Of a stretch of 42,449 nucleotides of DNA, positions 3,210 to 42,003 are shown piece after piece (position 1 is the first letter of the stretch; every line of letters starts with the position of its first letter). Below the pieces are notes generated by a model, which saw nothing but the letters and a program-made list of their open reading frames with translations, searched no databases and had not been told where the DNA came from. Origin of the DNA: a virus (lineage: Duplodnaviria > Caudoviricetes); IMG/VR virus record IMGVR_UViG_3300030207_000811, positions 1 to 42,449 of that record. One strand, given 5' to 3'. Position numbers and translations under genes: made by a program.

Positions 3210-3478
3210 CTTCTTCTAGCCTGACGTAGTCTAGAATTAGGATCTCTTGCTGCCTTTGGAAATTTCTTCATTTGACCTGCACTTCTTGCGCAGTATGATT
3301 TTCGCCTTTTAGCGGCAGCGGACCCCTTCTTAACTTTACCGGTCACAGCTGTTTTTAGTTTTGAGCCAGGATTCATTCTTCTATAGGCTTTGACCCCAGC
3401 TTGTGTCATGCCTGCGCCCGACTTAGTCGAACGAAAGTTCTTTTTATTTCTTTTGGGCATGTTGTCTTGTTTTCTCAA
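3197..3478 (-). CDS. small basic protein (DUF6321-like)
   Basis: Lys/Arg-rich, KRRKSYCARS...ARRRWKC. Confidence 0.7.
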   Translation of the reverse strand: MRKQDNMPKRNKKNFRSTKSGAGMTQAGVKAYRRMNPGSKLKTAVTGKVKKGSAAAKRRKSYCARSAGQMKKFPKAARDPNSRLRQARRRWKC

Positions 3479-3750
3479 ACTAAACCTCCCATGCTCATCT
3501 TTTTTCTTTTTGCAAATGTTGCAACGTTAGTTGGTTTACCGCCTGGATTACCGGCTGCTCTTTTTCGTCTGACAGCACTCGCCTTTTGCGACTTTGTCAT
3601 CCGTGTGGCTTTCGCAAGTGGGACACACTTGGGGTACTTTCTTTTTGAACCTGTTGATGATTTTCTTCCACAAGGTTGATATTTGCCATCCTTCTTTGGT
3701 GCTCCAATATCTACCCATTTTTGATTTACCCATTTTTTTAGATCACCCAT
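3475..3750 (-). CDS. small basic protein (DUF5872-like)
   Basis: LKKW...KWVD...CGR...YPKCVP; ends KKMSMGGLV. Confidence 0.7.
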   Translation of the reverse strand: MGDLKKWVNQKWVDIGAPKKDGKYQPCGRKSSTGSKRKYPKCVPLAKATRMTKSQKASAVRRKRAAGNPGGKPTNVATFAKRKKMSMGGLV

Positions 3751-3944
3751 TAGACTACTCGAGTTATTTTTTCTCTACCTTTCATAATCTTACCACATCC
3801 TCTTGCAACGAATCCACCATTTCTTGCATTGGCTCTTACTTTACCTTTGCAAACTTTTGATGCATACATGTTTGCGTACGCCGAAGGGTACACTTTGAAT
3901 TTACGCTTCGCTGCGGCTTTACCTTTAGGACATAGTTTAGCCAT
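3750..3944 (-). CDS. small basic protein (YPSAYAN motif)
   Basis: 64 aa; TAATG stop/start coupling on both sides. Confidence 0.7.
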   Translation of the reverse strand: MAKLCPKGKAAAKRKFKVYPSAYANMYASKVCKGKVRANARNGGFVARGCGKIMKGREKITRVV

Positions 3945-4081
3945 TATCTTTTTCTCGCTCTTCCACCTTTTTTAGCAACCATTCTTTTTGGATTGTATCC
4001 AAATTTTTTTGCTAACTCAGGTTTCTTTTTTGCTAGCTTAGCTAAGCCAGGATTTTTACTTTTACTTATTGGTTTTCCCAT
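3944..4081 (-). CDS. 45-aa basic micro-protein
   Basis: Manual translation MGKPISKSKNPGLAKLAKKKPELAKKFGYNPKRMVAKKGGRARKR; TAATG overlaps at both ends. Confidence 0.7.
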   Translation of the reverse strand: MGKPISKSKNPGLAKLAKKKPELAKKFGYNPKRMVAKKGGRARKR

Positions 4082-4227
4082 TACTTCTTCCTTTTTATTC
4101 CAGCTTCAGAAAGAGCAATAGCAATTGCTTGCTTTCTGTTTTTGACTTTTTTCTTAGAACCGCCACTCGTAAGTTTACCTTTTTTAAACTCACGCATTAC
4201 TTTTCTAACTTTTTTCTGACCCTTCAC
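4081..4227 (-). CDS. 48-aa basic micro-protein (DUF6496-like)
   Basis: GTG start in a TAGTG overlap; MKGQKKVRKVMREFKKGKLTSGGSKKKVKNRKQAIAIALSEAGIKRKK. Confidence 0.7.
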   Translation of the reverse strand: MKGQKKVRKVMREFKKGKLTSGGSKKKVKNRKQAIAIALSEAGIKRKK

Positions 4228-4538
4228 TATCTATTTATCTTTCCAGATTTTTTAGCTTTGGATCCAAACTTACCATAAGACTCATCTCTAGAAGCTTTTA
4301 ATTGCTTCTTAGTTCTTTTCTTTTTGATTCTCATAGCAATAGACTCATCTTTTCTAGCTTTGTAGCCTTGTTTTTTCTTACCAACACGACCACCTTTTTT
4401 CATCATAGGTCCACCTCTCATACCCATGTCGTCTTCGTAGTATCCAGATCTCATATCTCTTCTGGCTGTTGACATACCACCACCTCTTAAAGCTTTTCTA
4501 GATTGTGTAGTTTGTGTATTGTATCTTGGATTTGCCAT
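4227..4538 (-). CDS. basic low-complexity protein
   Basis: Start moved to MANPRY (GGAGG RBS); contains MKKGGRV and a repeated (K/R)DES motif. Confidence 0.7.
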   Translation of the reverse strand: MANPRYNTQTTQSRKALRGGGMSTARRDMRSGYYEDDMGMRGGPMMKKGGRVGKKKQGYKARKDESIAMRIKKKRTKKQLKASRDESYGKFGSKAKKSGKINR

Positions 4539-4539
4539 A

Positions 4540-5160
4540 TTACTTTCCTCCTTTGAATGCTTTTCCGAAGCCACGTTTTGCAGCTCCTCTTCTTTTAGTT
4601 ACTCTTCCGCCATCTTTCATGTCGTATGCACCTAAACCAAAATCTTTAGAATCTTCGCTAGGCTTAAAAAAATTTCTAATCGCTTCTCTATTTTTACCTT
4701 GTTGAGTTGTTATATTTGTTCTTCCCGGAGCTCTTAATTGAGGTGGTAACATTCCTTTTGCCATTTGTTTATTTGCAAGATCTACAGCACGTTGTGTTGG
4801 AGTCTTGTCAGTTTTTCTAACACCTAAAGTTAAACCTGCAGATTCAAATGGTTTTAGTGTTTTTGTTTTACCTTCTTTATCTACAACTTGACCAAACCTA
4901 AGTGGTTGTTTAGCAGCTTTAACACCAGCGTCGCCTCTCATTATAGCGTCTTTATAAACTTTTTCTTTAAACTCATCTTCCATTATTTTATTAGCACTTG
5001 CTCTTGCTTTTGCACTAGCGCTGTCTCCACCTCTTCCACTATCAACACTAATGTTTGACATTTCAGATCCTTTACCTCTGTTAGCTAATGCTAAACCAGT
5101 TCCAAGTAATGCTAACGCACCTAAAATTTTTCTATTTCGTCTTCTACTTTTTTTACTCAT
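4540..5160 (-). CDS. basic protein with an N-terminal hydrophobic segment
   Basis: MSKKSRRRNRKILGALALLGTGLALA; C-terminal MKDGGRV...RGAAKRG. Confidence 0.7.
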   Translation of the reverse strand: MSKKSRRRNRKILGALALLGTGLALANRGKGSEMSNISVDSGRGGDSASAKARASANKIMEDEFKEKVYKDAIMRGDAGVKAAKQPLRFGQVVDKEGKTKTLKPFESAGLTLGVRKTDKTPTQRAVDLANKQMAKGMLPPQLRAPGRTNITTQQGKNREAIRNFFKPSEDSKDFGLGAYDMKDGGRVTKRRGAAKRGFGKAFKGGK

Positions 5161-5546
5161 TATTTTTTTCCTCCATTACGGAATATTTGTGTACCCTTTA
5201 TACCATATATGCTCGCCACTACAAGGATCCATAAATTTGTGAACCATGACGGGAGCTGCGAGAACATCTCGAAAAACAATTTTACCTTGTCCATCGCTGT
5301 TGGGTCGTCTGATATGACTGCATATGCGAGCACCAACACGGGCAAACTAAGAATTATCAAAACTGCCTCGTCCTTCCAGTCTGATTGCCGAGCTTCTAAT
5401 AATTTTCCCTGATACTGTTCTTCACCCTGGGCCATTTTAGTGGCATGCATAAGCTGTGCCTCTGACATGGCCATTTTCGTTCTCTGCTTATTAGCATAAA
5501 TCTTACTTCCAGCAGAAACGGCTAATTTAATTGCCGATAACCACAT
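5160..5546 (-). CDS. holin-like membrane protein (3-TM type)
   Basis: SDWKDE followed by two hydrophobic helices and a basic C-terminus. Confidence 0.6.
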   Translation of the reverse strand: MWLSAIKLAVSAGSKIYANKQRTKMAMSEAQLMHATKMAQGEEQYQGKLLEARQSDWKDEAVLIILSLPVLVLAYAVISDDPTAMDKVKLFFEMFSQLPSWFTNLWILVVASIYGIKGTQIFRNGGKK

Positions 5547-5549
5547 GAT

Positions 5550-5732
5550 TTAGTACCAAGTAGCCTTTACAGGTTTTTTATCAGGTCTAATTCTTCTAGT
5601 ACCTTTAACATCCACAGTTTGTGACTCAGTTGGGTTAGTAGCTTCGATAACTATGCCGCCTTTTTGCATACCATCTTTGTCTGCACCCAATTCTGGAGTA
5701 ACTTTTGGATCTTTTCTATTTTTATTTGTCAT
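5550..5732 (-). CDS. hypothetical protein
   Basis: 60 aa, AAGGAG RBS, follows the portal gene. Confidence 0.65.
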   Translation of the reverse strand: MTNKNRKDPKVTPELGADKDGMQKGGIVIEATNPTESQTVDVKGTRRIRPDKKPVKATWY

Positions 5733-5746
5733 AGTTTCTCCTTATA

Positions 5747-8260
5747 TTATCTTTTTGGACCTTTCAAGATCTCAACGTCCGCCATTTTCATTAAATCATT
5801 CTCCATTTTAGCTGCTTGAGACATTGCTTGCTTTGTTAACGAAGTATTTGCTCGTAATTGTGCTAATTCTTCGTTCTGTTCAAGTTTTTCGTCGAACTGT
5901 TGTTGTCCCATTAGCTGTTTTGAACGATCTAAATCAATTTTTTCTTGGTCTTGATCACGTTTTGAGGCATCATTCATAGCTCTAAGGTCTAATTCTCTTG
6001 CTTTTAGTTGTGCAACAGGATCATTTCCGAAAGCACCCATAATTTGATTCTCTTCTTCTTTAAATTCTTGTGTCATTTCTGCAATTAATTTTGCTTTTCT
6101 AGCTTCTAACGCTAAAGTTAACTGCAAAGTTTGTGATTGAACCTGTGGATCTTGTTGCAACATTGGATTTTGTTGAATTGCCATTTGCAATTGTTGCAAT
6201 TGTTGTATCTCTTCTCTAAATTCTACCTCTAATTGCTCTTGTGCCATCAAAGAAATGTGTTCAAAAATATTTTTTTCTAATGCTGCTTTAACTGGTGGTG
6301 CGTTTCTTGCAGTATTAGTAGCCATAAAATTTAAATGCGTAGTTATATGTGCTCTATGATCCTGTCCTTTGAAAGCTTGAAAAGGTTTTCCTGACATAGA
6401 TAAAATATTTTCTGTAGCTGGGTCCATTGGCATAGGTGGTTGAGGTGGTGGTAAAATTTTTGCAATATCTTTTACACCAATCGCTTTATACATATCTCTA
6501 AATGCTTCGTACATATTATGCATTTGTGGATTAGACATAGCTAATTGTAATTCTGTTTGTGCTAAACTTATTCTTTGTGATTGTGAAAATATATTTGGAT
6601 CTGCAACTGGTATAATATCAATCTTGTCATCGAAGTCTGTCATCTTAACATTTTTTTCTCCACCAACTACATCGTAAGGATATTCACCTGGAAGATAACT
6701 TTTAAACACTGAAGCTAAAAGTGCAAACTCTTGCTTCATCGCCACATACAATCTTTTATGTATGGCTGACATGACTCTGGAACCACGTTCTAAGAGAGCT
6801 ATGGTCGTTCCAACAGCTGCTTGTTGGTTGCCGTCACCGACCTGCATGTCAGCTATGGCGGCAAATCTCTGTGCACCCTGAACCACAATTCCCATAAGCT
6901 GTAATAATGTTTGTGATGGTTCTTTAAAAGGTAAAGGCATAAATGCATCTCTGATGTTTCCACCAGGTGTATCTACGTCTCTAAACTCTCCGGGTTGAAT
7001 TGAATTTGCTTCGTCTCTTACACGAATTCCTCGTTGTTTAAATCCTGCAGGCATATTTGAAAATGTTCCTGCATCTATTAATTGTCTTAATGCGTTCGTT
7101 GCAGTTCTAGATAAACCACCAATCATGTGGATTAAACCAAAACCATAAAAACCCATTCCAGGTAAAAATTTAAAGTGAACGAAATATTCTATTTTATTTT
7201 TTTGTGGATCGTCTGGTTGATAGTTTCTTCTAATAGCTAAAACCTCTTTGCTACCAGCATCGATCGTTACTATGTACGGAAGTTTTATTCCCGTTGGATT
7301 TTGTTCTGCATCTTTATCTTCAAAACCTTCAAGATCAAGTGCAGTGTGTATTTCTAAAATTGTAAATACATCTTCGTCTCTTGTTCTCTTAACACCTTCT
7401 AATTCTCTTTCTTTTTTCTCTACTTCTGTTTCTTGTGAGTAACCTGGATTTATTTCTACGTCTCTATAAAAACCAGATACTTGTTTTTTTCTTAGATCAT
7501 TTTCCGACATTTTTAAAACGTGCACAACTGCAGTTGCATCTTCAATAGATGTAGCCGTGTACGGTACAACCAAATCATCTGATTGTACAAATTTGGAAAC
7601 GGCTCTGCCAAGAAGTTCATCGTAATAAACTTTCTTAAAAGCAGAGCCACTAAGAGGGAGATAAAAAAGCATCTGATCGAACTCGGGTTCATACTCTTTC
7701 ATCACATTCATGAGCTGATAGTTCATGAAATCTTTTACTCTAACCGACTGATCGTCTTTTTGTGGTGTAGGTTTCCCCATGGTCTGTGTGTGAACAGGAC
7801 CATTCGCCGGTAGTAATTCTTTGTAAGCTTGTGCTTGAAACTGTGTTACCGCTTCTGCTAAAACAGGGTGAGTTGCACCACTGGCATTTTGAAACGGTTG
7901 TGTTCTGTTTTCGTATTTAAATCCTAAAAGATCTAAACCTTTTGTATAACTGTCTTCCCAATCTTTTCTTGAAGATTTATACATCATGTAATCTTCATAA
8001 AGTTCAGAAGATAATCTACCTAAAACATCTTCAGGTAATAAATCTGCTAGATTGTCAAAGTGTTCGTTTGTTCCTGGTTGGTTAATAGCTTCAGGATCAA
8101 ATGTAATTGTAGCGCTTCCATCTTCTTCAGTCGTAACTTGAACATCATCTGGTCCAACTTGTTCTTCTACGTTTTCCTGAGATGCTTCTACAATCTCTTC
8201 TTCGCTAGGTAATTTTATTTCTTGCTCTACGTTCGGTAGAGACTTGTCTATTTCTGACAT
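5747..8260 (-). CDS. portal protein
   Basis: 837 aa; HPVLAEAV, GSAFKKVYYD, GFYGFG motifs and a Gln-rich coiled-coil C-terminus typical of P22-like portals; head-module position. Confidence 0.85.
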   Translation of the reverse strand: MSEIDKSLPNVEQEIKLPSEEEIVEASQENVEEQVGPDDVQVTTEEDGSATITFDPEAINQPGTNEHFDNLADLLPEDVLGRLSSELYEDYMMYKSSRKDWEDSYTKGLDLLGFKYENRTQPFQNASGATHPVLAEAVTQFQAQAYKELLPANGPVHTQTMGKPTPQKDDQSVRVKDFMNYQLMNVMKEYEPEFDQMLFYLPLSGSAFKKVYYDELLGRAVSKFVQSDDLVVPYTATSIEDATAVVHVLKMSENDLRKKQVSGFYRDVEINPGYSQETEVEKKERELEGVKRTRDEDVFTILEIHTALDLEGFEDKDAEQNPTGIKLPYIVTIDAGSKEVLAIRRNYQPDDPQKNKIEYFVHFKFLPGMGFYGFGLIHMIGGLSRTATNALRQLIDAGTFSNMPAGFKQRGIRVRDEANSIQPGEFRDVDTPGGNIRDAFMPLPFKEPSQTLLQLMGIVVQGAQRFAAIADMQVGDGNQQAAVGTTIALLERGSRVMSAIHKRLYVAMKQEFALLASVFKSYLPGEYPYDVVGGEKNVKMTDFDDKIDIIPVADPNIFSQSQRISLAQTELQLAMSNPQMHNMYEAFRDMYKAIGVKDIAKILPPPQPPMPMDPATENILSMSGKPFQAFKGQDHRAHITTHLNFMATNTARNAPPVKAALEKNIFEHISLMAQEQLEVEFREEIQQLQQLQMAIQQNPMLQQDPQVQSQTLQLTLALEARKAKLIAEMTQEFKEEENQIMGAFGNDPVAQLKARELDLRAMNDASKRDQDQEKIDLDRSKQLMGQQQFDEKLEQNEELAQLRANTSLTKQAMSQAAKMENDLMKMADVEILKGPKR

Positions 8261-8369
8261 TATTTTTCTCCGAGTTCTGGACCACTATAGGCTGTTTTAA
8301 AGGAACATTCAACCCCTGTGGATTAGGTCCACGTAATGGTGGTATAGTTCTAGTTAGTCGTTTAATCAT
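8205..8369 (-). CDS. 54-aa small protein (PPLRGPNPQGL motif) overlapping the portal start
   Basis: Manual translation MIKRLTRTIPPLRGPNPQGLNVPLKQPIVVQNSEKNNVRNRQVSTERRARNKIT; fills the gap between two long genes. Confidence 0.5.
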   Translation of the reverse strand: MIKRLTRTIPPLRGPNPQGLNVPLKQPIVVQNSEKNNVRNRQVSTERRARNKIT

Positions 8370-10653: not shown

Positions 10654-11939
10654 TACACCTCCAGGATCTTAGCTAGGCCGCCGCTTTTAAATCCAAGTCC
10701 TACATCTATACCTAACTTCATTTGTATTTCTTTGATTGTGTCTGGAAACTGTTCGGGATTTTTTAGTGCTTGATTCAATACTTTAAAATATTCTGTTTTT
10801 TCTTTACCTGCTAAAGTTGGGTCCAGAGAAATTTCTTTAAACATGTTTGTGATATCTTCTCCTTCGATACCGTACTTACGCATGTCTGCATACCCTCTGC
10901 TTACACCTTTTTCTAGAGCTTGTTGTTTTTTAAATAACCCTAAAGCTTTACCAACAAGTTTACCACTTCTAAGACCTACACGACCACCATCTGCAAATTC
11001 AAAATCAGATGGATCAACTGAATCAGGATCAAAGAACCTACTAGTTATTGTGTTACCTTTTACATCTTTAACTTTAACTAATTGTTTTGCAAACAGTTCT
11101 ATTTCTTCTCGACCATTTAAATTTGCAACAACAGATGAAACTCTTGGGCCAAAATATTTTTGTACTAGTAATAATGGATCACCCATAATTCCACCACCAC
11201 CTTCAGTCATAAATTTAAAATCATCTGTCTCCATAATTGATGATAGTGTTGGGCCACCTGGATTTGTTGGATCTTCCATATCTTTAATTGTATTTAAAAA
11301 ATCTCTAGCGTTACCACGCGCTACCGGTTTTGCATTTACTGCAACACCTGCTGTGTCATAAACTTTTTTGATTAAGTCCTCACTAATTAAATCTATATTC
11401 TTAACATTTTTAATTGCTTCTAAACCTGCACCTGTTGGTAAAATAGTTTCTGCTGCATCAACACCTTCTGACTTTGCTAAATTTCTAATTGTCTCTTCTG
11501 CTGATCCAACTGGTGCCGCTATATCGTCTGCTCCTCCACGTGAACCTGGTGGTGGCAGATCATCTGCCATAGCTCTTAAAGATTCTAAACCTTCAGCTGT
11601 TAGGCCCCTGGTCCCTGTTCCCATGTCCGTGATGTTTGCTGGAGCTGCAGGTGGAAAATAAAACTCGTTTGCTTTTTCTAAATTATTAATTAGTTTGGTA
11701 GCTTGTATATCGTTTAACTTATTCGAAGTTAAATAACCCATTGCACTTTCAAACTCATCAACGACTCTTGATTGTGGAATAGCACCGAAAGCTTCGATGT
11801 TTATATCCATGTCAATTGATGGTTCTGTAGTTTTACCTAAAAAATTAACATTGGACCGGGTACCAAGGATTTTGTTTAAACTGCCACCTAAATTTTGGTA
11901 GAGTTTAATTGCCCTATCTATTAAAATTTTACTCGCCAT
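10653..11939 (-). CDS. hypothetical protein, probable virion protein
   Basis: 428 aa between terminase and portal; carries FADGGRV and terminal FKSGGLA motifs. Confidence 0.55.
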   Translation of the reverse strand: MASKILIDRAIKLYQNLGGSLNKILGTRSNVNFLGKTTEPSIDMDINIEAFGAIPQSRVVDEFESAMGYLTSNKLNDIQATKLINNLEKANEFYFPPAAPANITDMGTGTRGLTAEGLESLRAMADDLPPPGSRGGADDIAAPVGSAEETIRNLAKSEGVDAAETILPTGAGLEAIKNVKNIDLISEDLIKKVYDTAGVAVNAKPVARGNARDFLNTIKDMEDPTNPGGPTLSSIMETDDFKFMTEGGGGIMGDPLLLVQKYFGPRVSSVVANLNGREEIELFAKQLVKVKDVKGNTITSRFFDPDSVDPSDFEFADGGRVGLRSGKLVGKALGLFKKQQALEKGVSRGYADMRKYGIEGEDITNMFKEISLDPTLAGKEKTEYFKVLNQALKNPEQFPDTIKEIQMKLGIDVGLGFKSGGLAKILEV

Positions 11940-13431
11940 AATATTCTATATTCCTTCTCTCCACAGGTTCATATTTTTCATCTTCAGGATGAACTATTAA
12001 TCCACCTTGTCTAAATCTCATTAGCGCTTGAGTCATGGAGTCAACGTAGTCATCGTGATCACCATGCGGAAACGCAGCACATTCCTCTATAACCTCCTGG
12101 GCAAAATGCTCGTGCATAGGAGCCCAGACTTTACCGGCCTCAAAGAAAGGCGAAACTGAGTTTACTCTAGCGTGTTTATCATTTCCTTTGCTCGGTGTAA
12201 AGTTCCCAACTGGGATTCCCATTTTTCTCAATTCGTGAGTTAATGGTGTTCCTGAAGCTTTAGACTCAATCAAGACTATGTCAGGACGCCAATATAGATA
12301 CTCTTGATGGGCCATTCTCCTAAGTTCAGGAAATTCATACCTATCCTTAAAAGCGTCTAATAATATTATATTGTGTCCCATGTCATCATCTACAAAGACT
12401 CCCCACGTTGTAATTGCACTAAAGTCAGCCGTTTCTTTTTTCAAAAAGGCTGTGTCGTAAGACTGTATTTTAAATTTTATTGGTGGTGGATATTCGTGTT
12501 CCCAGTTTCTCCACCAGTCTCTTTTGATGATAGCTCCTTCTTCTGCTGTGGGCTGCTGCATGTATTGAGCATTCCAATTTGATACAGGTATAGATGCTTT
12601 AGTTTTTTCTAATTCGTTTACGCTCCAGTATTCTGGCCAAACAGGATTTCCATTTGGAAGTATTGCCGGTAGTTCTACAACTTCCCATTGGTCAGAGTTC
12701 TCTTCTCCCTGAGCCTTGAGTAATTGTCCGGTAATATCTTTTGTAGACCAACGAGTCATTACAACTACAATACGACCTCCTGGCTGCAAACGCTGTCTAG
12801 GTCCTGACGTGTACCAGTTCCATGCTTTGTCAAAAGACTTACTATCTTTTTTAATATCTTGTTCTTTGTGTGGATCGTCAATGATCAGGAGATCGGCACC
12901 ACGACCTGTGATTGCTCCACCAACACCGGCTGCAAAGTATTCACCACCTTGTTCAGTTTTCCATTTACCAGCAGCCTGAGAATCTTCCATGAGTCTTGTA
13001 TCAAAGACTTGTTGATAGTTTCCATCATCAACTAGGTTTTTAGTTTTACGTCCAAAGTCTACAGCAAGATCTGCTGTGTGTGTTGCTTGGATTATTTTTA
13101 ATTTTGGATTTTTACCGATCATCCATGCCGGGAGTAAGTATGAGGCAAACTCCGACTTTGTGTGTCTTGGCGGCATGTTTATGATCAGACGTTTAATTTT
13201 CCCCTGTGCGAGGTCATTAAATTTTTTATTAATTTTTTTGTGATGAGAGCCTTCAATAAATTCAGGCCACACAAATTTTACAAAACTTAAAAAATCATTT
13301 TTAATTTCAGGAGTTACTTCTTCTAGTTTGATAGCTTCTTGACTTTCTAGATAATCAGCAAACTCTTCCTCCGTTAAATGTTTCTTTAAGTCGTCTTCAG
13401 AAATTTTTATAATATTTTTTTCAGAACTCAT
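11929..13431 (-). CDS. terL: terminase large subunit
   Basis: MPPRHTKS Walker A variant, LLIIDDP Walker B, MTRW coupling motif, RNase H-like SYDTA...HDDYVDS. Confidence 0.95.
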   Translation of the reverse strand: MSSEKNIIKISEDDLKKHLTEEEFADYLESQEAIKLEEVTPEIKNDFLSFVKFVWPEFIEGSHHKKINKKFNDLAQGKIKRLIINMPPRHTKSEFASYLLPAWMIGKNPKLKIIQATHTADLAVDFGRKTKNLVDDGNYQQVFDTRLMEDSQAAGKWKTEQGGEYFAAGVGGAITGRGADLLIIDDPHKEQDIKKDSKSFDKAWNWYTSGPRQRLQPGGRIVVVMTRWSTKDITGQLLKAQGEENSDQWEVVELPAILPNGNPVWPEYWSVNELEKTKASIPVSNWNAQYMQQPTAEEGAIIKRDWWRNWEHEYPPPIKFKIQSYDTAFLKKETADFSAITTWGVFVDDDMGHNIILLDAFKDRYEFPELRRMAHQEYLYWRPDIVLIESKASGTPLTHELRKMGIPVGNFTPSKGNDKHARVNSVSPFFEAGKVWAPMHEHFAQEVIEECAAFPHGDHDDYVDSMTQALMRFRQGGLIVHPEDEKYEPVERRNIEYYGE

Positions 13432-15973: not shown

Positions 15974-16002
15974 TTGAGCTCTGGGATATTATAGGATATA
16001 CC
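15974..16002 (+). promoter_or_regulatory. sigma70-like promoter overlapped by TGGGAT-N4-TAGGAT
   Basis: TTGAGC-17 nt-TATACC, then GGAGG RBS and ATG at 16021. Confidence 0.5.
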
Positions 16003-16020
16003 TGCTGACTGGAGGACAAC

Positions 16021-16251
16021 ATGACAGATAATAAAGACTATACCAGACGGAACAGGTTCAATGGTGAAAGCGTTGAGCTCACAGCTGAGGAGGCTGATAA
16101 ACATGATAAGATTTTTTATCATGAAGCTCTGGCCACGCTCGAGGATCAAAAGCTTGGGACCGGGGCCAGCAAACACTGGCAGGAGATGCGAAAGCTCCTG
16201 GACTGGTTCATGAAAAATAATGCCAAAGCTTACATGGTTTTATTGGATTAA
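16021..16251 (+). CDS. hypothetical early protein (C-terminal AYMVLLD)
   Basis: 76 aa, GGAGG RBS. Confidence 0.75.
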   Translation: MTDNKDYTRRNRFNGESVELTAEEADKHDKIFYHEALATLEDQKLGTGASKHWQEMRKLLDWFMKNNAKAYMVLLD

Positions 16252-16259
16252 AAAATTCT

Positions 16260-16424: not shown

Positions 16425-16436
16425 ATAGGATAATCT
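16408..16436 (+). promoter_or_regulatory. sigma70-like promoter of the gp88-like gene
   Basis: TTGACA-17 nt-TAATCT. Confidence 0.55.
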
Positions 16437-36000: not shown

Positions 36001-36944
36001 GCTTTACCTGATAGAAGAAGATCATTAATTTCTGATAGCAATTTATTTCTATCTTTAGCAGCTGCTTGATTAAATACAGTTTTCATTGGAGAAAATATTT
36101 TGTCAATGTTTTGATCTAATTCTCTAGATATGTTTCTAGCAGCCGCAGCATCTGAAGCTCTTTCACCTATTGATGTTCTTTCTATATCAAAAAATTCTTG
36201 AGTCTTACCACTTCTTGCCCTGAACCCCGATGCAATTTTATCTATAAATCTATCTAGTTTAGAGTTTGCTACATCTAATTGTTTGTTTCTATTTGTAAGT
36301 TTTTTTATTAAACTACCTGTGCCCCCTATGACACCGGTAAACAAAGCTCCTTCTGTACCAAACTTAACTCTATTTAAAAGATCTCTTGCAGGATCGTCGT
36401 CGGTTCCTCTTTCAATCTGTGTTGGACCACCAACTAAATCTCCTAATGAACCAATTTGTTCTACGTCACCAACAAAAATACCTTCTGCTGCACCACCACC
36501 AATAGCTCCTGCGATAAATTTATTTGTCTTACCTCTTGCATTTAGTTCTGCAGCTTTTCTAGCTGCATCGTTAAGAGGCACCGAGTTAGCTTTAAAATAC
36601 TTACCACCTCTCGCAGCTCTCATTGCATCATCAGCCATGGCTGCACCAACTTTAAAACCTTTTACTGCTGGTAGACCTATGTTAACTAATGCCTCTGTAA
36701 TCTGTCCGGCAGCTGTAGCTTCTGCTTTCTCATCAAATTCTGTAAGATCGTCAAAAAATGCTTCTACCTTTGCAGCTCTACCCTTATCTACTCCGAGATC
36801 CATAAGAGTTGCACCCAAAGAAAAGAAACCTTTAGGTATAGAAATTAAACCAGATGCAACACCAGATAATACAGACTCAATAGTTCCTACTGAGTTGTTT
36901 CTACTATCGTTTCTACTATCGTAAGAGTCAAATATAGAGGCCAT
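33087..36944 (-). CDS. large internal virion (ejection) protein
   Basis: 1285 aa, last of a series of Gly/Ala-rich genes after the tail genes; SPVTHVRN motif. Confidence 0.65.
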   Translation of the reverse strand: MASIFDSYDSRNDSRNNSVGTIESVLSGVASGLISIPKGFFSLGATLMDLGVDKGRAAKVEAFFDDLTEFDEKAEATAAGQITEALVNIGLPAVKGFKVGAAMADDAMRAARGGKYFKANSVPLNDAARKAAELNARGKTNKFIAGAIGGGAAEGIFVGDVEQIGSLGDLVGGPTQIERGTDDDPARDLLNRVKFGTEGALFTGVIGGTGSLIKKLTNRNKQLDVANSKLDRFIDKIASGFRARSGKTQEFFDIERTSIGERASDAAAARNISRELDQNIDKIFSPMKTVFNQAAAKDRNKLLSEINDLLLSGKAELNDQGVATFGKLDETKKDALVKKLKDLNVDNQIITDILGNLSSIRTKWSNLFSKLGRSLGQNEIQEFKKLFGNKFKNYLGSTYDIFQNQSILPWLRYTPSRQAIDEAKEVFIASAREAGEEMTDLQAEQAVSRVLKTARLPKGIRMDKPSDAIFEVPNFFVNRTTLDEVVTNRGSALVSAGAIKEGDRQVFERLLGKQTNPMQTILGGTAKLSMITRRNLFFDELIKKSEELKAAGKTPMFAKNQDEALQFFGDDFKQIRIDQAKTLSVAAKGGSVNPLNELYTTPGMADALEATSLSFDKAGMLGQLYQSLVLYPKGLSQIAKTILSPVTHVRNFVSAAAFATANGIIPDGTAIKNAYQALQTPLKGTRQQNELYEKLLKLGVVNSNVRLGDLTRLLEDVNFGETMTSDKGLRMLLKPLSKLKSVSQDLYTAEDDFWKIASWAMEKSRLEKNFEKVGIVRGQFFKRNGQEVRLTEEFLEQEAADIVKNNIPNYDYVPEFIKSLRKLPIGNFVSFPAEIARTGTNIVRRALREINETIELADGTVVKPFQNIGYTRLFGFGTTVAAVPYATAEAFAAIYDVTKEEREALRNFVAPWSRNSTILPIKDKNGNFKYVDFSHANAYDTLTRPIQNVINAVADGRTDQDGIMNDFLVGTFNAMKEFGQPFVSESIWSEAVLDIVSRGGRTRDGFQVYNELDTDGDKASKIMNHLVKALMPFSYQQLKRLDQSIKPVDVLMRGKNAEFDKYGETFEFGDEFAGLFGFRAVNVNPERTLKFKIADYQKGTRNARSLFTRETLRGGPIEPREIVDAYLNANRALFQVRKDMSNNIDFAQTLGLNEDRTLNALGERLSNRDINALLEDQFRPFVPSREVEKAFEENALRLGVPNPYERADEVIQNLADQMSNISLLNAEFPVFENPLLPIMQDSPATPTSVFGTAAPNINIVNTNQGNRSVFNNLTTEQKIDLLFNR

Positions 36945-36952
36945 TTATCCTC

Positions 36953-38263
36953 CTATAAACGTCTAGATATGTTGCCTTGAGCGTCAATAATAAATATAGA
37001 ATCACTGATTACATAATAACCTGGAGGAGTAGGAGTACCTTCTTTTCTAGCTACTTCTATTTGTTCTTTTAAAAATACTTCTTCATCTACACCTTGTGGG
37101 ACTTTTGTAGAATCTATTACTGTAGCATCGTTACCTGTTTTAACTTTGAAAAGAACTGCAAGATCCCTACCTTTTGGAGCATTTTCTTTTATTGTAGCCT
37201 CTGCTACTGCTTCTTCAAAAGTATCTCCCTCTAATTGTTTCTTACGCACTGCTAGTGTTGATTCTTTTACTCTTCTATCTAGATCGTCTTTCTCTCTGTT
37301 AATATCTTTTGTAATTTCTGCCTTGAGGATTGCAGCATCAATAGCATCTTTAGTTTTATCAGGTTTATCAAACGCTTTACTAACACTAGAAATTAATCTA
37401 GATTGTAAATCTCCAGATCTTAATCCTTCTTTAAGTGTAATACCTTCTCTATTTAAATTAGCTAGATCTTGACTAGCTGCGATTAAAGCGTCTCCTGTAG
37501 CTCTCTTAGTTAGTTTATCTATTTCCATGATGTCATAGTATTTTTTCTTTAAAGCTTCTCTTTGTTCGTTTTCTGTAAGTGTAGGAGTTCCCTCTCCTTC
37601 TTGTTTTTTATTAGGATCATTATAAAACATATCTGGATCTCCACCTCCCGGTGCTCCAGAAGTGCCGCCAACAGTTGAATCTGGTGGTGGTGGCGTTTCT
37701 TCTCCGTCTTTGTTAAAATATTGTCCTGCAAGATATAAACCTGTTACTGCTCCTGTAGGATTGTATACTAGTCTAGCTCCTGATGCTAAAAGACCTTTTG
37801 CTTTAGGGTTTGTAATACCTCTATATATTCCAGATGCTAACATAAAAGTAGGATCGTTTCTAAAAAACGGTCTAGTTTCATAGATAGAACCAACCTGTTC
37901 TTTATTAACAGTGTCTTTAGCAGTTTTTATTACTTTTGGTTTTAAACCTAATTTTTTACCGCCTTCAGATTGTGCTATTCTTATTGGAGTATAAGGAGCT
38001 GGTTTTTGTGTTTGAAATATATTTCTAAATCCTTGTGTTATTCGTGGTATCAAAGACGGAGCTGCTCTAGTTGCACCTACTCTTGCTGCAGTTCCACCTA
38101 TACCAAAAAGAGGTGCTAAAAATGCAAGAGGGCCAGCATATCCTGGTCTACTACCATCTGCAGCTGGTTGAACTAGTTGTTGCGGCTTATCTTTCATACC
38201 AGACATAATACCCTCTTTAATAGGGCCGCCTGTTTTAAACATAGGTCTATTTAATGGTCTCAT
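36953..38263 (-). CDS. putative internal virion protein
   Basis: 436 aa, starts MRPLNRPMFKTGG, amphipathic segments. Confidence 0.55.
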   Translation of the reverse strand: MRPLNRPMFKTGGPIKEGIMSGMKDKPQQLVQPAADGSRPGYAGPLAFLAPLFGIGGTAARVGATRAAPSLIPRITQGFRNIFQTQKPAPYTPIRIAQSEGGKKLGLKPKVIKTAKDTVNKEQVGSIYETRPFFRNDPTFMLASGIYRGITNPKAKGLLASGARLVYNPTGAVTGLYLAGQYFNKDGEETPPPPDSTVGGTSGAPGGGDPDMFYNDPNKKQEGEGTPTLTENEQREALKKKYYDIMEIDKLTKRATGDALIAASQDLANLNREGITLKEGLRSGDLQSRLISSVSKAFDKPDKTKDAIDAAILKAEITKDINREKDDLDRRVKESTLAVRKKQLEGDTFEEAVAEATIKENAPKGRDLAVLFKVKTGNDATVIDSTKVPQGVDEEVFLKEQIEVARKEGTPTPPGYYVISDSIFIIDAQGNISRRL

Positions 38264-38266
38264 GCT

Positions 38267-39127
38267 CTACCCAAATATTTTACTGTACAATCCACCAACA
38301 CCAAGAGCTGTTTGAAGTGCAGTCGTAAATGGACTACTTACAGGTTGGTCTTGATATTGGAATCCTGGAGTCGCTCCAGATAATCCAGTTATTGCGGATC
38401 CGTATTGTTGTAATCTTCCGTATGGTTCGTAAGCTCCAGTTCTTGCTGCTTGTTGATCTGCGCTTAATTGAGCTTGAGTCATTCCTTGTCTTAGTGCACC
38501 AAGTCCACCAAGAGCTTGAATGTCTGCACCCATTGATTGTCTACCAAAGTTAGAAAGATTTGCAAATTGCCCTGGTAATGCACCTTGCATTTGAGCAATG
38601 TTGCCTTGTTGACCAAATCTTTGTGCAGCTAATTGCTGTGCTTGATTAAATCCTTGTTGTAACAAACCTGCCCTGATCCCCGCTCTGTTGGCAAGTGTAT
38701 CGGCATCGTACTGTCCTAACAATGCTCCTTCTCTACCACCACCAAAAGCTCCAGCTGTTACTGCAGCGTCTTGGATTGATTGTCTGCCACCAATTCTTGA
38801 TTGATCGTACTGTCGTAAAGTTTCATCTATTACGTCCGTTTGATATGGGGACATAAAAGGTTGATATGCTTGTGGTCCAGTGAGACCTCTTAAACCAGCT
38901 ATATCAGCTGCTTGTTGTGTTGTTGCCGCTGTCGCTGCTTGTAAAAAAGGTGCATAAGAGCCAACACCTGCTCGTGCTAAATTAATTGCTTGAGTCTGTA
39001 ACGGATCTTCGCCAGCAACAAACTGACGTCCGGTAAATTTAGTTGTGTCAATCGGTGCACTATACGTTGCCGTTGCCTGTTCGGCAAAATCTTTGGCTGT
39101 ATCTTGTAAATAATCTGGTAATGCCAT
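38267..39127 (-). CDS. Gln/Ala/Gly-rich DNA-ejection protein (putative)
   Basis: FMSPYQ..V, AGAFGG.R, Gln-rich helices. Confidence 0.6.
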   Translation of the reverse strand: MALPDYLQDTAKDFAEQATATYSAPIDTTKFTGRQFVAGEDPLQTQAINLARAGVGSYAPFLQAATAATTQQAADIAGLRGLTGPQAYQPFMSPYQTDVIDETLRQYDQSRIGGRQSIQDAAVTAGAFGGGREGALLGQYDADTLANRAGIRAGLLQQGFNQAQQLAAQRFGQQGNIAQMQGALPGQFANLSNFGRQSMGADIQALGGLGALRQGMTQAQLSADQQAARTGAYEPYGRLQQYGSAITGLSGATPGFQYQDQPVSSPFTTALQTALGVGGLYSKIFG

Positions 39128-40098
39128 TATGCTATTCTACTCTCCAACATTTGTGTTTGTTCGAACATCTCTTGTGCAGGATTCATACCCTGAGACTCTT
39201 CAGATATCATACCACCTGCTTCTAAATTGTCCATCATGTTTTGCATAACTTCAGCGCCTTTGTCTATATCGCCACCGCCTGCATTTCTTACAGCCTCAGC
39301 TGTAAATACAAATTCGTTTTTACTTAGTCTTGCTGGTACATCGTCTGCTCTTTCTTCTCTTCCAAGATCAACAAAACCACCAGTGTTTCTAAAATCTTTT
39401 TCTTGTCCACCAAGATCCATGATACCACCTTCTTGTTTTTTTACTCTTACAGTTTCTCCACCACTAGGGTAGTTAAACTTATTAGTTCCTGGAGGTGTTT
39501 CATAACCAGGTACATCGGCTAATCCACCACCAGCAGCGTAAAAGTTACGTTGAACAAATTCTCTACCAGGCATAAAAAATAAACCTGACTCTTGAGGTGA
39601 ATAACCTTGTTGGTACATCTGCATAGCTCTTTGTCTAATTGCATTTGGATCTAGTTGCTCTACAACTTCTTCTTCTTCGTCCTCACCGTCACCCATTAAA
39701 AATGGTGCAATTATACCCGCAGCTCCTAAACCTGTTAGTGCTGTTTTACCTAAACTAAATTTACCATCTGTAGAAAATAAACCAGCTAGTGGTCCGTCAA
39801 AAGCAAACTTTCCACCTTGCATACTACCAATACCTAGTCGTGACCCAAGACCTGATAATGAAAAACCACCAAGACCTTTACCACCTAAAAATTGTGGTAG
39901 TCCACCACCACCTAATCCATACAGAGCTGCGCCCGCTAAAGCTGCTTTACCTATAGGACTTTTAATTATTTTCTTAATTGGTTTAGTAATTTTTTTAACA
40001 AGCTTACCTAAAAAATACCCTTGTCTAGGGTCTTGTAATGACGTAATTCCGCCACTTTCATATAATTCTCTGGGTAGTTGCATTCTAGAAATTGCCAT
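39127..40098 (-). CDS. putative internal virion protein (ADDVPARLSKNEFV motif)
   Basis: 323 aa, Gly-rich, multiple xxGG motifs. Confidence 0.6.
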   Translation of the reverse strand: MAISRMQLPRELYESGGITSLQDPRQGYFLGKLVKKITKPIKKIIKSPIGKAALAGAALYGLGGGGLPQFLGGKGLGGFSLSGLGSRLGIGSMQGGKFAFDGPLAGLFSTDGKFSLGKTALTGLGAAGIIAPFLMGDGEDEEEEVVEQLDPNAIRQRAMQMYQQGYSPQESGLFFMPGREFVQRNFYAAGGGLADVPGYETPPGTNKFNYPSGGETVRVKKQEGGIMDLGGQEKDFRNTGGFVDLGREERADDVPARLSKNEFVFTAEAVRNAGGGDIDKGAEVMQNMMDNLEAGGMISEESQGMNPAQEMFEQTQMLESRIA

Positions 40099-40120
40099 AT
40101 TTTAACCTCAATCCCTCGTT

Positions 40121-40321
40121 TTACTTTGTTTTTCCGAACAAATCAAGTCTAGGCATTACCACGTTTACGTCTCTTCTTATGTCAGTTTCTGGTATATTTT
40201 TAGCTTTCCATTCTTCTTCAGAAGCGTAGACCTCTCCAGTCTTAACATTACTAATTTTTGTGGTAACTTTTGTTGGTTCAATTACCGGAACCTCTTGACC
40301 GTTTACGATTGTTTTTTTCAT
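40121..40321 (-). CDS. hypothetical protein
   Basis: 66 aa, TAATG coupling. Confidence 0.7.
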   Translation of the reverse strand: MKKTIVNGQEVPVIEPTKVTTKISNVKTGEVYASEEEWKAKNIPETDIRRDVNVVMPRLDLFGKTK

Positions 40322-40674
40322 TAGTCTATTGTCTCCTTGTTTATGTTCATATAACTAATACCTATTGTTACAGAATCTGTAGAACTCATTGTAACTTTTA
40401 AAGCTGTGCTGCCCTCTACGATTAAAGGCAGAGTAAGTATTTCAGTGCTAGAATTTGCAGCTAAAGTCTGTGTGTTTACTATGTTAAAAGTATTGTTTTT
40501 AATTGTTATTGTTGGTGTGTTACCTGTATTATTTGTAACTCTAAAAGATTTAATAATATAAGTTTGATTTATTGTGGGTAATTGAGTGCCAGCAGCATTT
40601 GTACCAAACATAGCTGTTTCTGCAGTTGTAGCTAAATTTACTCCAAAGAATTTAAATTGATTTACTGTAGCCAT
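40321..40674 (-). CDS. small beta-rich virion protein (putative)
   Basis: 117 aa, Thr-rich. Confidence 0.6.
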   Translation of the reverse strand: MATVNQFKFFGVNLATTAETAMFGTNAAGTQLPTINQTYIIKSFRVTNNTGNTPTITIKNNTFNIVNTQTLAANSSTEILTLPLIVEGSTALKVTMSSTDSVTIGISYMNINKETID

Positions 40675-40841
40675 TATGAATCTAAAAAGAAACTTCTTGC
40701 TTCTATCTCTTGTTTTAACTCATCTTGAAAAGATGAATTTAGTTTTGTTATAACACCATCCAAATCTCTAACTAAAGATTGAAAAGTTCTTTCTTCATAT
40801 TCTTTACTTGCTCTTGTTAATGATTGTACAATTTTAGCCAT
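40674..40841 (-). CDS. 55-aa hypothetical protein
   Basis: Manual translation MAKIVQSLTRASKEYEERTFQSLVRDLDGVITKLNSSFQDELKQEIEARSFFLDS; fills the gap with coupled ends. Confidence 0.7.
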   Translation of the reverse strand: MAKIVQSLTRASKEYEERTFQSLVRDLDGVITKLNSSFQDELKQEIEARSFFLDS

Positions 40842-42003
40842 ATAATATACCTGCTAGTCCTCCTTCTTTAAATCCATATTGACCACCTCTTCTATCTTCT
40901 CGTGCAGAGTCAGATTGAGTATATCCACCGCCACCTACTCCAGATGTTTTAGCTGCAGATTCTGTTGTTACATCGCTTAGATTTCTGTCTGGTGGATCAT
41001 CTCTACCATAAGTTCCTGCATCTAATTGTCGTTGAATTTCTTCAGTTCTTTTTTTATTAGCCCTTATAATATCTGTATAACCAGTCTGGTCTTCAATATC
41101 TTTTAACTCTTGTAAACCTTGTTTATCATAATTGTATCTAAATAAATTCATTTTATTCATTTGATTAGCTTTAGCTGCTAATGCAGGATTGTTAACATTT
41201 ACAAAAGTATAGTTACCAAATTCGTCTTGAACTAATTTTGTATCACCATACCTATCTTGGAATAAATCACTTGAAAAATAGTCATCTAATTTGTCTATAT
41301 CTCTCTGTTGTTTTTCTGCATAATTACCAAAACCAGATCTTATATTTCTACCAAAAATATCTTTACTTCCTCCAGTAGTGTTTTCTCCAAATACAGTTGG
41401 TCCAGTGTATCCCATTTTACTTTGTGTATAGATTTGTTGAGGCATTGTCATTTTATCGTAATAACTATCAGGCAGCACTGCTTGAAGAATACCTGTTGCA
41501 CCAAAAGGTAATTGAGGTCTTACATCCAATGGATTTTCTACAGGATAGTTTCCAATACTTGTTTCGTCTGCTGCGTACTCTGCCATTGCTGCGTCTATTT
41601 CAGGTTTTGACATATTTGATGTTATGCCTATCTGTTTAAAGTCAGGACCTAATTGTGCCATGTTATATGCAGTTGCATCTCTCATCATTTGATCTACTGA
41701 TCTTTGTTGTGGAAAACCCATGTCATACATTTTTTGTGCAATAAAACTTGGGTTCTCTAAATTCTGTTGTCTCTTTTGTACAGCTGTACCAAAGTCTGCC
41801 ATTAATTGATTTGTAGGAAGAGATGAGATTCCACCACCTCCAATATTTTTTGTTGGAACGACGGGATTAACAATTAAATTTTCTACATCACCCTCATCTT
41901 CTTTTTCTAAATCATCCACAGTAGGAGGATTTAGCATATATTTTGATCGAGGCATGTATTCTAAATTTCTTACATTTCTATAATATTGATCTAAAGGTGA
42001 CAT
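40834..42003 (-). CDS. hypothetical protein, probable virion protein
   Basis: 389 aa ending FKEGGLAGILYG. Confidence 0.6.
   Translation of the reverse strand: MSPLDQYYRNVRNLEYMPRSKYMLNPPTVDDLEKEDEGDVENLIVNPVVPTKNIGGGGISSLPTNQLMADFGTAVQKRQQNLENPSFIAQKMYDMGFPQQRSVDQMMRDATAYNMAQLGPDFKQIGITSNMSKPEIDAAMAEYAADETSIGNYPVENPLDVRPQLPFGATGILQAVLPDSYYDKMTMPQQIYTQSKMGYTGPTVFGENTTGGSKDIFGRNIRSGFGNYAEKQQRDIDKLDDYFSSDLFQDRYGDTKLVQDEFGNYTFVNVNNPALAAKANQMNKMNLFRYNYDKQGLQELKDIEDQTGYTDIIRANKKRTEEIQRQLDAGTYGRDDPPDRNLSDVTTESAAKTSGVGGGGYTQSDSAREDRRGGQYGFKEGGLAGILYG

What the first reader, a model, noticed from the sequence alone, without database searches (positions are those of the whole stretch)
3475..42003. Shared hydrophobic-x-x-Gly-Gly motif in about a dozen unrelated virion-module proteins: possible capsid-targeting or maturation-cleavage code
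Seen: the motif, usually [FYML]-x-x-G-G followed by x-hydrophobic, recurs in otherwise unrelated proteins, often near termini. Instances: MSMGGLV* (3475), ARNGGFV (3750 gene), AKKGGRA (3944 gene), MKKGGRV (4227 gene), MKDGGRV (4540 gene), FRNGGKK* (holin), MQKGGIV (5550 gene), FADGGRV and FKSGGLAKILEV* (10653 gene), FRQGGLI (TerL tail), FKTGGPI (36953 gene), YESGGIT / KQEGGIM / RNTGGFV / LEAGGMI (39127 gene), FKEGGLAGILYG* (40834 gene). It is not conspicuous in the replication proteins. Known: adenovirus protease and ASFV pS273R mature core proteins at di-glycine sites, and T4 internal proteins share a short capsid-targeting sequence. Inference: a portable signal that docks cargo into the procapsid or marks it for cleavage. 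I see no recognisable protease in this window.
Basis: partly seen in the sequence, partly recalled or inferred. Interest (0 to 1): 0.85.

Follow-up and report, generated by a model that had tools for sequence, protein, structure and literature searches.

The report
Cut-before-AxGG code on pelagiphage cargo
A seven-residue Gly-Gly peptide recurs at the ends and joints of about ten unrelated late proteins of this marine short-tailed phage and matches the spot where phage T5's tail ruler protein is measurably cut, so it likely marks where proteins packed inside the particle are cut just before the Ala/Lys, probably by a small unnamed domain that the phage itself carries.

Summary
The motif is real. 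All 16 listed peptides are present. [FYM]xxGGx[VILMA] occurs 11 times in 30 virion-module proteins against 2.6 expected, and 0 times in 35 others. The main sites are conserved in relatives, up to 41 of 41. The holin site fails; the TerL and 5550 sites are doubtful. The phage is HTVC027P-like. The adenovirus-type reading (cut after GG) is probably the wrong register. T5 pb2 is cut at R1127|AEGG: the published 9702 Da fragment fits a cut before Ala, not after GG (9387 Da). The crAss001 cargo-protein model starts at A425-FGG. Gene 39127 ends in a small domain shared with lambda, JBD30 and Douge tape measures. It keeps an Asp and a Glu and begins with this motif. All 11 domain-bearing genomes examined carry the motif (77 sites vs 15.6 expected); three without it sit at background (5 vs 3.4). 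Best reading: a maturation cut site on internal proteins, read by that domain. No cut is shown here, catalysis is unproven, and the trans link is weak in distant lineages. This scan noted the same motif and T5 link before on other DNA.

The parts
39127..40098 (-). First gene of the ejection-protein cluster (323 aa): short leader, basic and Gly-rich segment, acidic linker, C-terminal conserved domain; carries several motif copies
   Evidence: PHROG tape-measure hit on residues 238-297; upstream of the phrog_4287 DNA ejection protein
39247..39390 (-). Core of the candidate reader domain (about residues 237-284; Asp252, Glu262), shared with tape-measure proteins; its first residues R|NTGGFV align with the A-x-G-G-x-V start of tape-measure members
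40042..40062 (-). Motif Y13|ESGGIT, end of the N-terminal leader of gene 39127
   Evidence: 48 of 55 homologues
39520..39540 (-).
   Evidence: 50 of 55 homologues
39418..39438 (-). Motif K221|QEGGIM, where the highly conserved C-terminal part of gene 39127 begins
   Evidence: 55 of 55 homologues; upstream sequence diverges
39205..39225 (-). LEAGGMI after the last domain helix; conserved with the domain, cut status unclear
   Evidence: 55 of 55 homologues
38219..38239 (-). Motif F9|KTGGPI, end of the 9-residue leader of the 436-aa ejection-cluster protein (36953-38263)
   Evidence: 41 of 41 homologues; HTVC027P gp84, G001, G002
40852..40872 (-). Motif F378|KEGGLA, start of an 11-residue C-terminal tail of gene 40834-42003
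   Evidence: 6 of 14 BLAST homologues; many unassigned proteins share only this tail
10977..10997 (-). Motif F315|ADGGRV in gene 10653-11939 (between TerL and portal)
   Evidence: 14 of 16 homologues
10671..10691 (-). Motif F417|KSGGLA, start of an 11-residue C-terminal tail of gene 10653-11939
   Evidence: 13 of 17 homologues
4600..4620 (-). Motif M181|KDGGRV in basic protein 4540-5160
   Evidence: 15 of 15 homologues
4383..4403 (-). Motif M46|KKGGRV in basic protein 4227-4538 (K+R 31%)
   Evidence: 17 of 18 homologues
3956..3976 (-). Motif A36|KKGGRA in basic mini-protein 3944-4081 (K+R 38%)
   Evidence: 3 of 5 homologues
3807..3827 (-). Motif A40|RNGGFV in basic mini-protein 3750-3944
   Evidence: 13 of 15 homologues
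3478..3498 (-). Motif M85|SMGGLV at the C-end of basic protein 3475-3750
   Evidence: 6 of 10 homologues
5649..5669 (-). M22|QKGGIV in gene 5550-5732; doubtful member
   Evidence: 4 of 21 homologues
11995..12015 (-). FRQGGLI in the TerL C-terminal region; doubtful member, probably a TerL element
   Evidence: 20 of 22 close homologues but RQGS or RAGN in HTVC023P and DSL-LC04
5163..5183 (-). FRNGGKK at the end of holin-like gene 5160-5546; rejected
   Evidence: 0 of 35 homologues fit the full motif; spacing varies
38267..39127 (-). DNA ejection protein (phrog_4287) without the motif; context and internal negative control
   Evidence: 0 sites in 60 homologues vs 7.0 expected
5747..8260 (-). Portal protein; no motif; possible docking site of the domain by analogy with crAss001
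   Evidence: 64.5% identity to HTVC027P; 0 sites in 74 homologues

Best explanation
The peptide x|[A/K]-x-G-G-x-hydrophobic recurs at the leaders, tails and module joints of this phage's late proteins and is likely a maturation cut site, cut just before the Ala/Lys, on proteins predicted to be packed inside the head, probably read by the small Asp/Glu-bearing domain at the end of gene 39127. Shown: the motif, its conservation and position, its absence from portal, capsid, scaffold and replication proteins, and the kinship of the 39127 domain with tape-measure C-terminal domains that begin with the same peptide. Taken from other phages: the register (T5 pb2 masses; crAss001 model start). Inferred: (1) the motif-bearing proteins are head cargo (ejection proteins, small basic DNA-neutralising peptides, accessory proteins); (2) the domain sits at the portal, as the motif-started crAss001 domain does; (3) it grips the A-x-G-G-x-hydrophobic strand, which mimics its own first strand; (4) the bond before it is hydrolysed, trimming 9-13-residue leaders and 11-residue tails and splitting polyproteins. 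In long-tailed phages the unit would act on its own chain; in these podophages the site has spread to other genes. Step 4 being catalysed by the domain's own Asp252 and Glu262 is the weakest link (about 0.3).
For: Register: T5 pb2 is cut after R1127 (PMC10038345), which reads FVPR|AEGGMM. Computed masses 121,680 and 9702 match the reported 121,683 and 9702; a cut after GG would give 9387. The crAss001 C1 portal-bound model is residues 425-552, starting at A-F-G-G, and conservation in 17 C1 domains starts there. One relative begins M-AEGGL where HTVC027P gp50 has MRSYY|SEGGL. Domain: profile hits tape measures in PDB 8zdo (E 2e-27), 8rk3 (2e-9) and lambda 8iyk (2e-4); about 10,000 IMG/VR stretches; 74 of 121 have an upstream site, with Ala first in 60 of 74. 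Asp and Glu/Asp are kept in 57 and 58 of 58 members not picked by the DNA pattern. Co-occurrence: 11 domain-bearing genomes or contigs have 77 sites vs 15.6 expected, 61 of them outside the domain gene; 3 without have 5 vs 3.4. Pra-JY27 and 10 metagenome loci first scored motif-positive and domain-negative, then proved to hold a divergent domain. In HMO-2011 and HTVC104P the domain gene lies between portal and capsid genes. One 449-aa basic protein of MW202545 has 6 strict sites and further looser copies in tandem, which suits a polyprotein. phiRIO-1, reported unprocessed, has no domain hit better than E 0.07.
Against: No cut and no virion proteome were found for this phage type in my searches. 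The T5 site is disputed: an older MALDI estimate gave V1148 +/- 1, and raw data are not public. The crAss001 authors read C1 as one chain threaded through the portal and mention no cleavage; a model start is not a measured N-terminus. The T5-type, crAss-type and window-type domains could not be shown homologous (hhalign probability 2.6, 1.1, 0.06), and PF25725 does not hit the window, so the register is carried over by the peptide alone. In 41 dereplicated ejection-module loci of more distant phages, sites outside the domain gene were 14 vs 10.0 expected in 32 domain-positive loci (13 of 32 had any) and 1 vs 2.7 in 9 negative loci, all of one clade: weak. crAss001 as a whole shows no enrichment with my pattern (1 vs 1.8). 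Two AlphaFold models are middling (pLDDT 70, pTM 0.45-0.47, no strands) and match no known fold or peptidase. For lambda the predicted fragment is 12.5 kDa against about 14 kDa reported. The invariant columns in alignments A1, A3 and A4 were partly imposed by my search patterns. The record is 69% complete.
Confidence: 0.5

Rival explanations
1. The site is cut before the Ala/Lys, but by a separate enzyme (a host protease, or a phage gene of unrecognised fold such as 876-1367 or one in the missing third of the genome); the 39127 domain is only a product that docks at the portal or tail.
For: Same register evidence. The domain core is under 50 residues and resembles no peptidase. A 1973 paper title in T5 reference lists mentions host involvement in tail-protein cleavage (title only). 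Gene 876-1367 has no named family.
Against: The site is shared by phages of E. coli, Bacteroides, Pseudomonas, mycobacteria and SAR11, and tracks the domain rather than the host. Counterparts of genes 876-1367 and 216-794, by position and N-terminal likeness, are also in CRP-902, which lacks the motif. No gene in the corresponding part of HTVC027P is annotated as a protease (not rescanned by me).
Confidence: 0.22
2. The motif is a docking tag that loads cargo into the procapsid by binding the portal-anchored domain or the scaffold; most copies are never cut.
For: 11-residue C-terminal tails are the only part shared by otherwise unrelated proteins. The motif-started crAss001 domain binds the portal wing in 12 copies. 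CRP-902 lacks the motif but has a different shared N-terminal peptide on four head-module proteins.
Against: The one mapped site (T5) is cut exactly there. Many tandem copies between short basic modules suit cutting better than addressing. Docking and cutting are not exclusive.
Confidence: 0.2
3. Adenain/ASFV-like cleavage after the di-glycine by a cysteine protease.
For: Invariant GG with a hydrophobic residue upstream.
Against: T5 fragment mass 9702, not 9387; the crAss001 model keeps AFGG joined to the domain; conserved preferences also lie after the GG; no such protease among 65 proteins.
Confidence: 0.04
4. No signal: Gly-rich linkers and shared ancestry of short repeats.
For: Virion-module proteins are GG-rich overall (83 vs 56); 8-residue tandem repeats occur; holin, TerL and 5550 instances look accidental.
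Against: Enrichment remains with Gly positions fixed; Gly-rich 38267 has 0 sites in 60 homologues; the motif survives where flanks do not.
Confidence: 0.04

Closest known systems
Maturation cut of phage T5 tape-measure protein pb2 into pb2* and pb2C, after R1127 (PMC10038345; PMC11937500; disputed in PMC11937520)
   Same: The sequence at the cut, R|AEGGMM, fits the motif and is followed by a small Glu-bearing domain of a large tape-measure family.
   Different: One site in one tail protein of a siphophage, enzyme unnamed in the passages read; here about ten head-module and ejection proteins of a podophage carry it, and the following domain is of another type whose homology to T5's was not shown.
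Lambda gpH to gpH* plus gpHC (PMC12617516)
   Same: gpH holds the same domain as gene 39127 (residues 754-780), flanked by F733|ATGG and Y778|ATGG.
   Different: The paper states that site and catalyst are unknown; the reported fragment is about 14 kDa against 12.5 kDa predicted; tail rather than head.
crAss001 cargo protein C1 (gp45) and its portal-bound domain, Pfam PF25725 (PMC10172136)
   Same: First ejection protein with motif copies at module joints; the ordered domain begins at A425-F-G-G and has a similar late Glu strand.
   Different: No profile hit to the window; hhalign probability 1.1; the authors describe no cleavage.
T4 prohead protease gp21 with its Glu-specific sites and the capsid-targeting sequence of internal proteins (recalled; also named in earlier scan notes)
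   Same: A short shared peptide on internal proteins, removed or cut during head maturation.
   Different: No known prohead-protease family among 65 proteins; capsid and scaffold lack the motif; specificity lies mostly after the cut; sites are N-terminal, internal and C-terminal.
Adenovirus protease and ASFV pS273R di-glycine sites (recalled)
   Same: Gly-Gly in core-protein precursors.
   Different: Those cut after the GG with a dedicated cysteine protease; here the evidence puts the cut two residues before the GG.

Membership tests
HTVC023P/HTVC027P-type pelagiphages | Portal, TerL, GroES, Pol A and gene order shared with HTVC027P | tested here: met
   Portal 64.5% over 100%; gene-by-gene likeness
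T5-type tape-measure maturation site | x|A-x-G-G-x-hydrophobic peptide at the joint | tested here: met
   first residue here is often Lys rather than Ala
T5-type tape-measure maturation site | Followed by the T5-type (G-E-x-G-x-E) domain | tested here: inconclusive
   The window has the lambda/JBD30/Douge type; hhalign to the T5 type probability 2.6, aligning only the A-x-G-G start
T5-type tape-measure maturation site | Bond actually cut in the particle | not testable with these tools
   needs virion mass spectrometry
Lambda-gpH-type C-terminal tape-measure domain | Profile match and conserved late G-E-F-V strand | tested here: met
crAss cargo protein 1 domain (PF25725) | Profile match | tested here: not met
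   0 matches at E <= 10; Atlas score 0.80 is within chance; hhalign 1.1
crAss cargo protein 1 domain (PF25725) | Binds the portal wing | not tested
   no portal co-fold was run
Adenain / ASFV pS273R di-glycine processing | Cut after GG | tested here: not met
   tested only on T5 masses and the crAss001 model start, not in this phage
Adenain / ASFV pS273R di-glycine processing | Encoded cysteine protease of that clan | tested here: inconclusive
   none in 65 proteins; record 69% complete
T4 gp21 / capsid-targeting sequence system | Prohead protease gene of a known family | tested here: inconclusive
   none found; genome incomplete
T4 gp21 / capsid-targeting sequence system | Capsid and scaffold share the site with internal proteins | tested here: not met
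   0 sites in 8 capsid and 9 scaffold homologues, some partial
Peptidase (any known clan) | Known fold or catalytic arrangement in the 39127 domain | tested here: inconclusive
   no Pfam hit and no fold match, on middling models

The most novel reading that the evidence does not exclude
A 50-80-residue domain carried in tape-measure and ejection proteins of tens of thousands of phages is an unrecognised Asp/Glu peptidase. It cuts before A-x-G-G, on its own chain in long-tailed phages (T5, lambda) and on a whole set of tagged cargo from a portal-anchored position in podophages such as these pelagiphages and crAss001. That would supply the missing enzyme and site of lambda gpH cleavage (F733|A734) and a portable tag for loading or releasing proteins in phage heads.
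Probability: 0.3. Interest if true: 0.9.

Novelty: new variant of a known kind. Interest (0 to 1): 0.7.

Why it matters
A 2025 paper states that the site and the catalyst of lambda gpH cleavage are unknown (PMC12617516), and the T5 site is disputed. The motif names an exact bond (lambda F733|A734) and candidate residues (lambda E755; T5 E1143 and E1147; here D252 and E262) that can be tested in laboratory phages. It also marks which 'hypothetical' proteins of an abundant marine phage group are probably head cargo, and predicts their mature ends. If the domain is the enzyme, it is a new, very small peptidase family.

Tried and rejected
Cut-after-GG register: rejected on T5 masses. Holin site: rejected; TerL and 5550 sites: set aside as doubtful. 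Known protease in the window: none. Gene 876-1367 as protease: no PDB relative, no named Atlas family, and its apparent counterpart is present in motif-negative CRP-902; not favoured, not excluded. PDB sequence searches with 39127 and the portal alone gave nothing. Two AlphaFold models and four fold searches gave no match. One complex prediction (domain residues 10-78 of alignment A1 with the last 33 residues of gene 40834) returned 'no answer', score 0.00, controls not run. Homology among the three domain types was not shown; the T5 hit is circular because T5 rows were in A3; without them E is 2.6e-5 in a five-sequence set and 0.02 in six frames of 16 kb. The first co-occurrence pass (14 vs 8.5 with domain, 19 vs 7.4 without) miscalled 10 loci until the model was iterated; one search also used a slightly stricter pattern. 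Of 124 loci fetched were given to the script and 41 remained after the flank and redundancy filters. Genomes were partly incomplete fetches (HTVC023P 49 of 61 kb, Pra-JY27 50 of 65, RW 50 of 62, CRP-902 50 of 52, MW202545 50 of 57, HMO-2011 50 of 55, HTVC104P 50 of 54, crAss001 92 of 103); four were chosen because they hold the domain. The claim in earlier notes that T4-like phages put their protease site at the same module joints was not tested. Literature: searches (xxGG; AxGG) listed no paper describing the motif; I saw listings and abstract starts only, and the library lacks most subscription papers.


Full report
Setting. The window is a whole IMG/VR virus record, 42,449 bases, estimated 69% complete. 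Its portal is 64.5% identical to that of Pelagibacter phage HTVC027P, and gene order follows that podophage. The virion module is on the minus strand in two blocks: 33087-42251 (tail nozzle end, ejection cluster) and 1-13431 (TerL, two large unknown genes, portal, a run of small basic proteins, GroES, a probable scaffold, two unknown genes, capsid start). In the passages I read, the HTVC023P/027P description does not mention a protease, a motif or mass spectrometry (10.1101/2019.12.14.876532).

Observation. All 16 peptides are there. With Gly positions held fixed, [FYM]..GG.[VILMA] occurs 11 times in 30 virion-module proteins against 2.58 expected, and 0 times in 35 others. The pattern was chosen with the window in view, so I tested relatives. 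In 160 loci it is dense in the 36953, 39127, 10653 and small basic families. It is absent from portal (0 in 74), the Gly-rich 38267 ejection protein (0 in 60), capsid and scaffold. Site-by-site conservation keeps ten genes' sites to varying degree, drops the holin site (0 of 35) and casts doubt on 5550 (4 of 21). The TerL site is kept in close relatives (20 of 22) but not in HTVC023P or DSL-LC04. Sites are about threefold enriched near both termini. Many proteins at the 40834 position share nothing detectable but the short tail. The position profile favours F/Y/M/A, then A/K/R, then D/E/K, G, G, L/R/I, and a hydrophobic residue (the GG and the last position were imposed).

Register. The same peptide sits at a mapped cut. 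T5 pb2 is cleaved after R1127 (PMC10038345, passages; preprint passages), and the sequence there is FVPR|AEGGMM. Reported intact masses are 121,683 and 9702 (PMC11937500, passages). I compute 121,680 and 9702 for a cut before Ala, and 9387 for a cut after GG. A reply disputes the site, citing an older estimate of V1148 +/- 1 (PMC11937520, passages); the T5 supplementary figures were not read. In crAss001 the portal-bound part of cargo protein C1 is modelled as residues 425-552 (PMC10172136, abstract and sections 7, 10, 11 read). Residues 425-428 are A-F-G-G, and 17 related domains become conserved at that point. So that chain is not cut after GG there. The authors describe no cleavage and propose a continuous threaded chain; their peptide-coverage figure is not held as text and one supplement is a scan. 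I therefore read the motif as x|A-x-G-G-x-hydrophobic, with the cut before the Ala or Lys.

Candidate reader. The last 100 residues of gene 39127 are far better conserved than the rest and start at K|QEGG. Their core hits tape-measure proteins and, as a profile, the tape measures of PDB 8zdo, 8rk3 and lambda 8iyk. It has no Pfam family, about 10,000 IMG/VR stretches, and 3529 cluster representatives at E <= 0.001. In tape measures the domain itself begins with A-x-G-G-x-V (74 of 121 loci have an upstream site), so the cargo motif copies the domain's own first residues. A second family (G-E-x-G-P-E, about 21,000 stretches) has the motif upstream in 86 of 122 loci, most often 15 residues before, which is T5's spacing. 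An Asp and a Glu persist in 57 and 58 (one as Asp) of 58 members found without the DNA pattern; they were still found by a profile built on it. The three domain types could not be linked by profile comparison. AlphaFold gave middling models without a fold match. The JBD30 paper predicts a hook of two helices and a hairpin for this region and found no peptidase motif (PMC11445458, passages).

Co-occurrence. Eleven genomes or contigs with the domain hold 77 strict sites against 15.6 expected, 61 outside the domain gene. CRP-902, QDWS535 and MW202785 lack it and hold 5 against 3.4. HTVC023P (3 vs 1.1) and Pra-JY27 (2 vs 1.2) are not significant alone, and crAss001 shows no excess with this pattern. 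Twice, motif-positive sequences that seemed to lack the domain proved to carry a divergent one. In HMO-2011 and HTVC104P the domain gene lies between portal and capsid genes, where prohead proteases often sit (general knowledge). Against this, in 41 ejection-module loci of more distant phages the excess outside the domain gene is slight: 14 vs 10.0 in 32 loci with the domain, 1 vs 2.7 in 9 without, while 29 sites lie inside domain genes. The spread to other genes is thus strong in some lineages, including this one, and weak in others. phiRIO-1, reported as unprocessed by semi-tryptic searching (PMC4819975, passages), has no domain hit and only single loose matches; this fits but proves little.

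Mechanism. Most likely the motif-bearing proteins are head cargo. The 39127 domain would sit at the portal, grip the motif, and the bond before it would be cut, trimming leaders and tails and releasing short basic peptides (K+R 27-40% in the mini-proteins). I put the whole at 0.5, cleavage by any enzyme at about 0.7, and catalysis by the domain at about 0.3. A separate protease (0.22) and docking without cutting (0.2) remain open.

Lambda. gpH carries the domain between F733|ATGG and Y778|ATGG. A cut at the first gives 12.5 kDa; about 14 kDa is reported, the site and catalyst are stated to be unknown, and residues about 690-817 are unresolved (PMC12617516, passages). Other GG pairs at 709-721 would give 13.8-14.8 kDa, so size does not decide.

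Novelty. Virion maturation cleavage is a known kind of system; this specificity, its spread over unrelated cargo and the candidate reader were not found in print by the searches (listings only). PMC1796659 (passages) notes only that tape-measure processing is common. The scan has noted the motif on other DNA many times. I saw three such notes, reached the T5 register, and read notes with the same T5 link; two papers came from those notes. They are repeats of the idea, not independent evidence. T4, adenovirus and ASFV specificities are recalled, not from a call.

Noticed in passing
L166 (CRP-902) 37200-38741, 38741-39277, 39536-40282, 41141-42451, minus strand: Four head-module proteins of this motif-negative relative share an N-terminal peptide MANP[VI]K..., a possible alternative cargo tag.
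   Followed up: no
L166 18568-19002; L537 12778-13206; L163 41726-42184; L542-L565: A GNAT-type acetyltransferase gene (so annotated in CRP-902 and QDWS535) sits directly before the 38267-like ejection gene in many relatives; those ejection proteins often start with Gly- or Cys-rich ends. The window lacks it at that place.
   Followed up: no
L554, L563, L565 (gene upstream of the GNAT gene); L540 33490-35778 C-end: An unnamed C-terminal domain starting RVIC[NT]EL, right after a GG in three loci, also ends HMO-2011 gp49.
   Followed up: no
window 2398-2811 (-): GroES-like co-chaperonin in the head module, present in motif-positive and motif-negative relatives alike.
   Followed up: partly
window 876-1367 and 216-794 (-): Two genes between scaffold and capsid, at the same place in the portal-related genomes fetched; no named family or PDB relative for 876-1367.
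   Followed up: partly
window 3197-4538 (-): Run of very basic mini-proteins (K+R 27-40%). The 3197 module matches the C-ends of much longer PHROG families and in HTVC023P gp43 follows a motif-bearing leader.
   Followed up: partly
L538 (MW202545) 37301-38650 and 20074-21993, minus strand: A 449-aa basic protein with many tandem motif copies, and an ejection-cluster protein with two copies of the domain.
   Followed up: partly
window 8205-8369 (-): A 54-aa ORF overlapping the portal start has 37 distinct homologues in the fetched loci, so it is probably a real gene.
   Followed up: no
window 16001-18000: G+C rises to 0.46 against about 0.36 elsewhere, over plus-strand genes including a GP88-family gene.
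   Followed up: no
L303 5274-5945 (lambda gpI) and 4777-5376 (gpK): gpI has a K-S-G-G at 98-101 and only residues 134-222 are resolved in the virion; neighbouring gpK is annotated as a C40 peptidase. A possible second processing route in lambda.
   Followed up: no
L304 8122-11781 (T5 pb2), residues 1135-1150: The His of the 'zinc carboxypeptidase motif' ascribed to pb2C is usually Ala in the wider family, while both Glu residues are kept (partly by my pattern), so that label may be accidental.
   Followed up: partly
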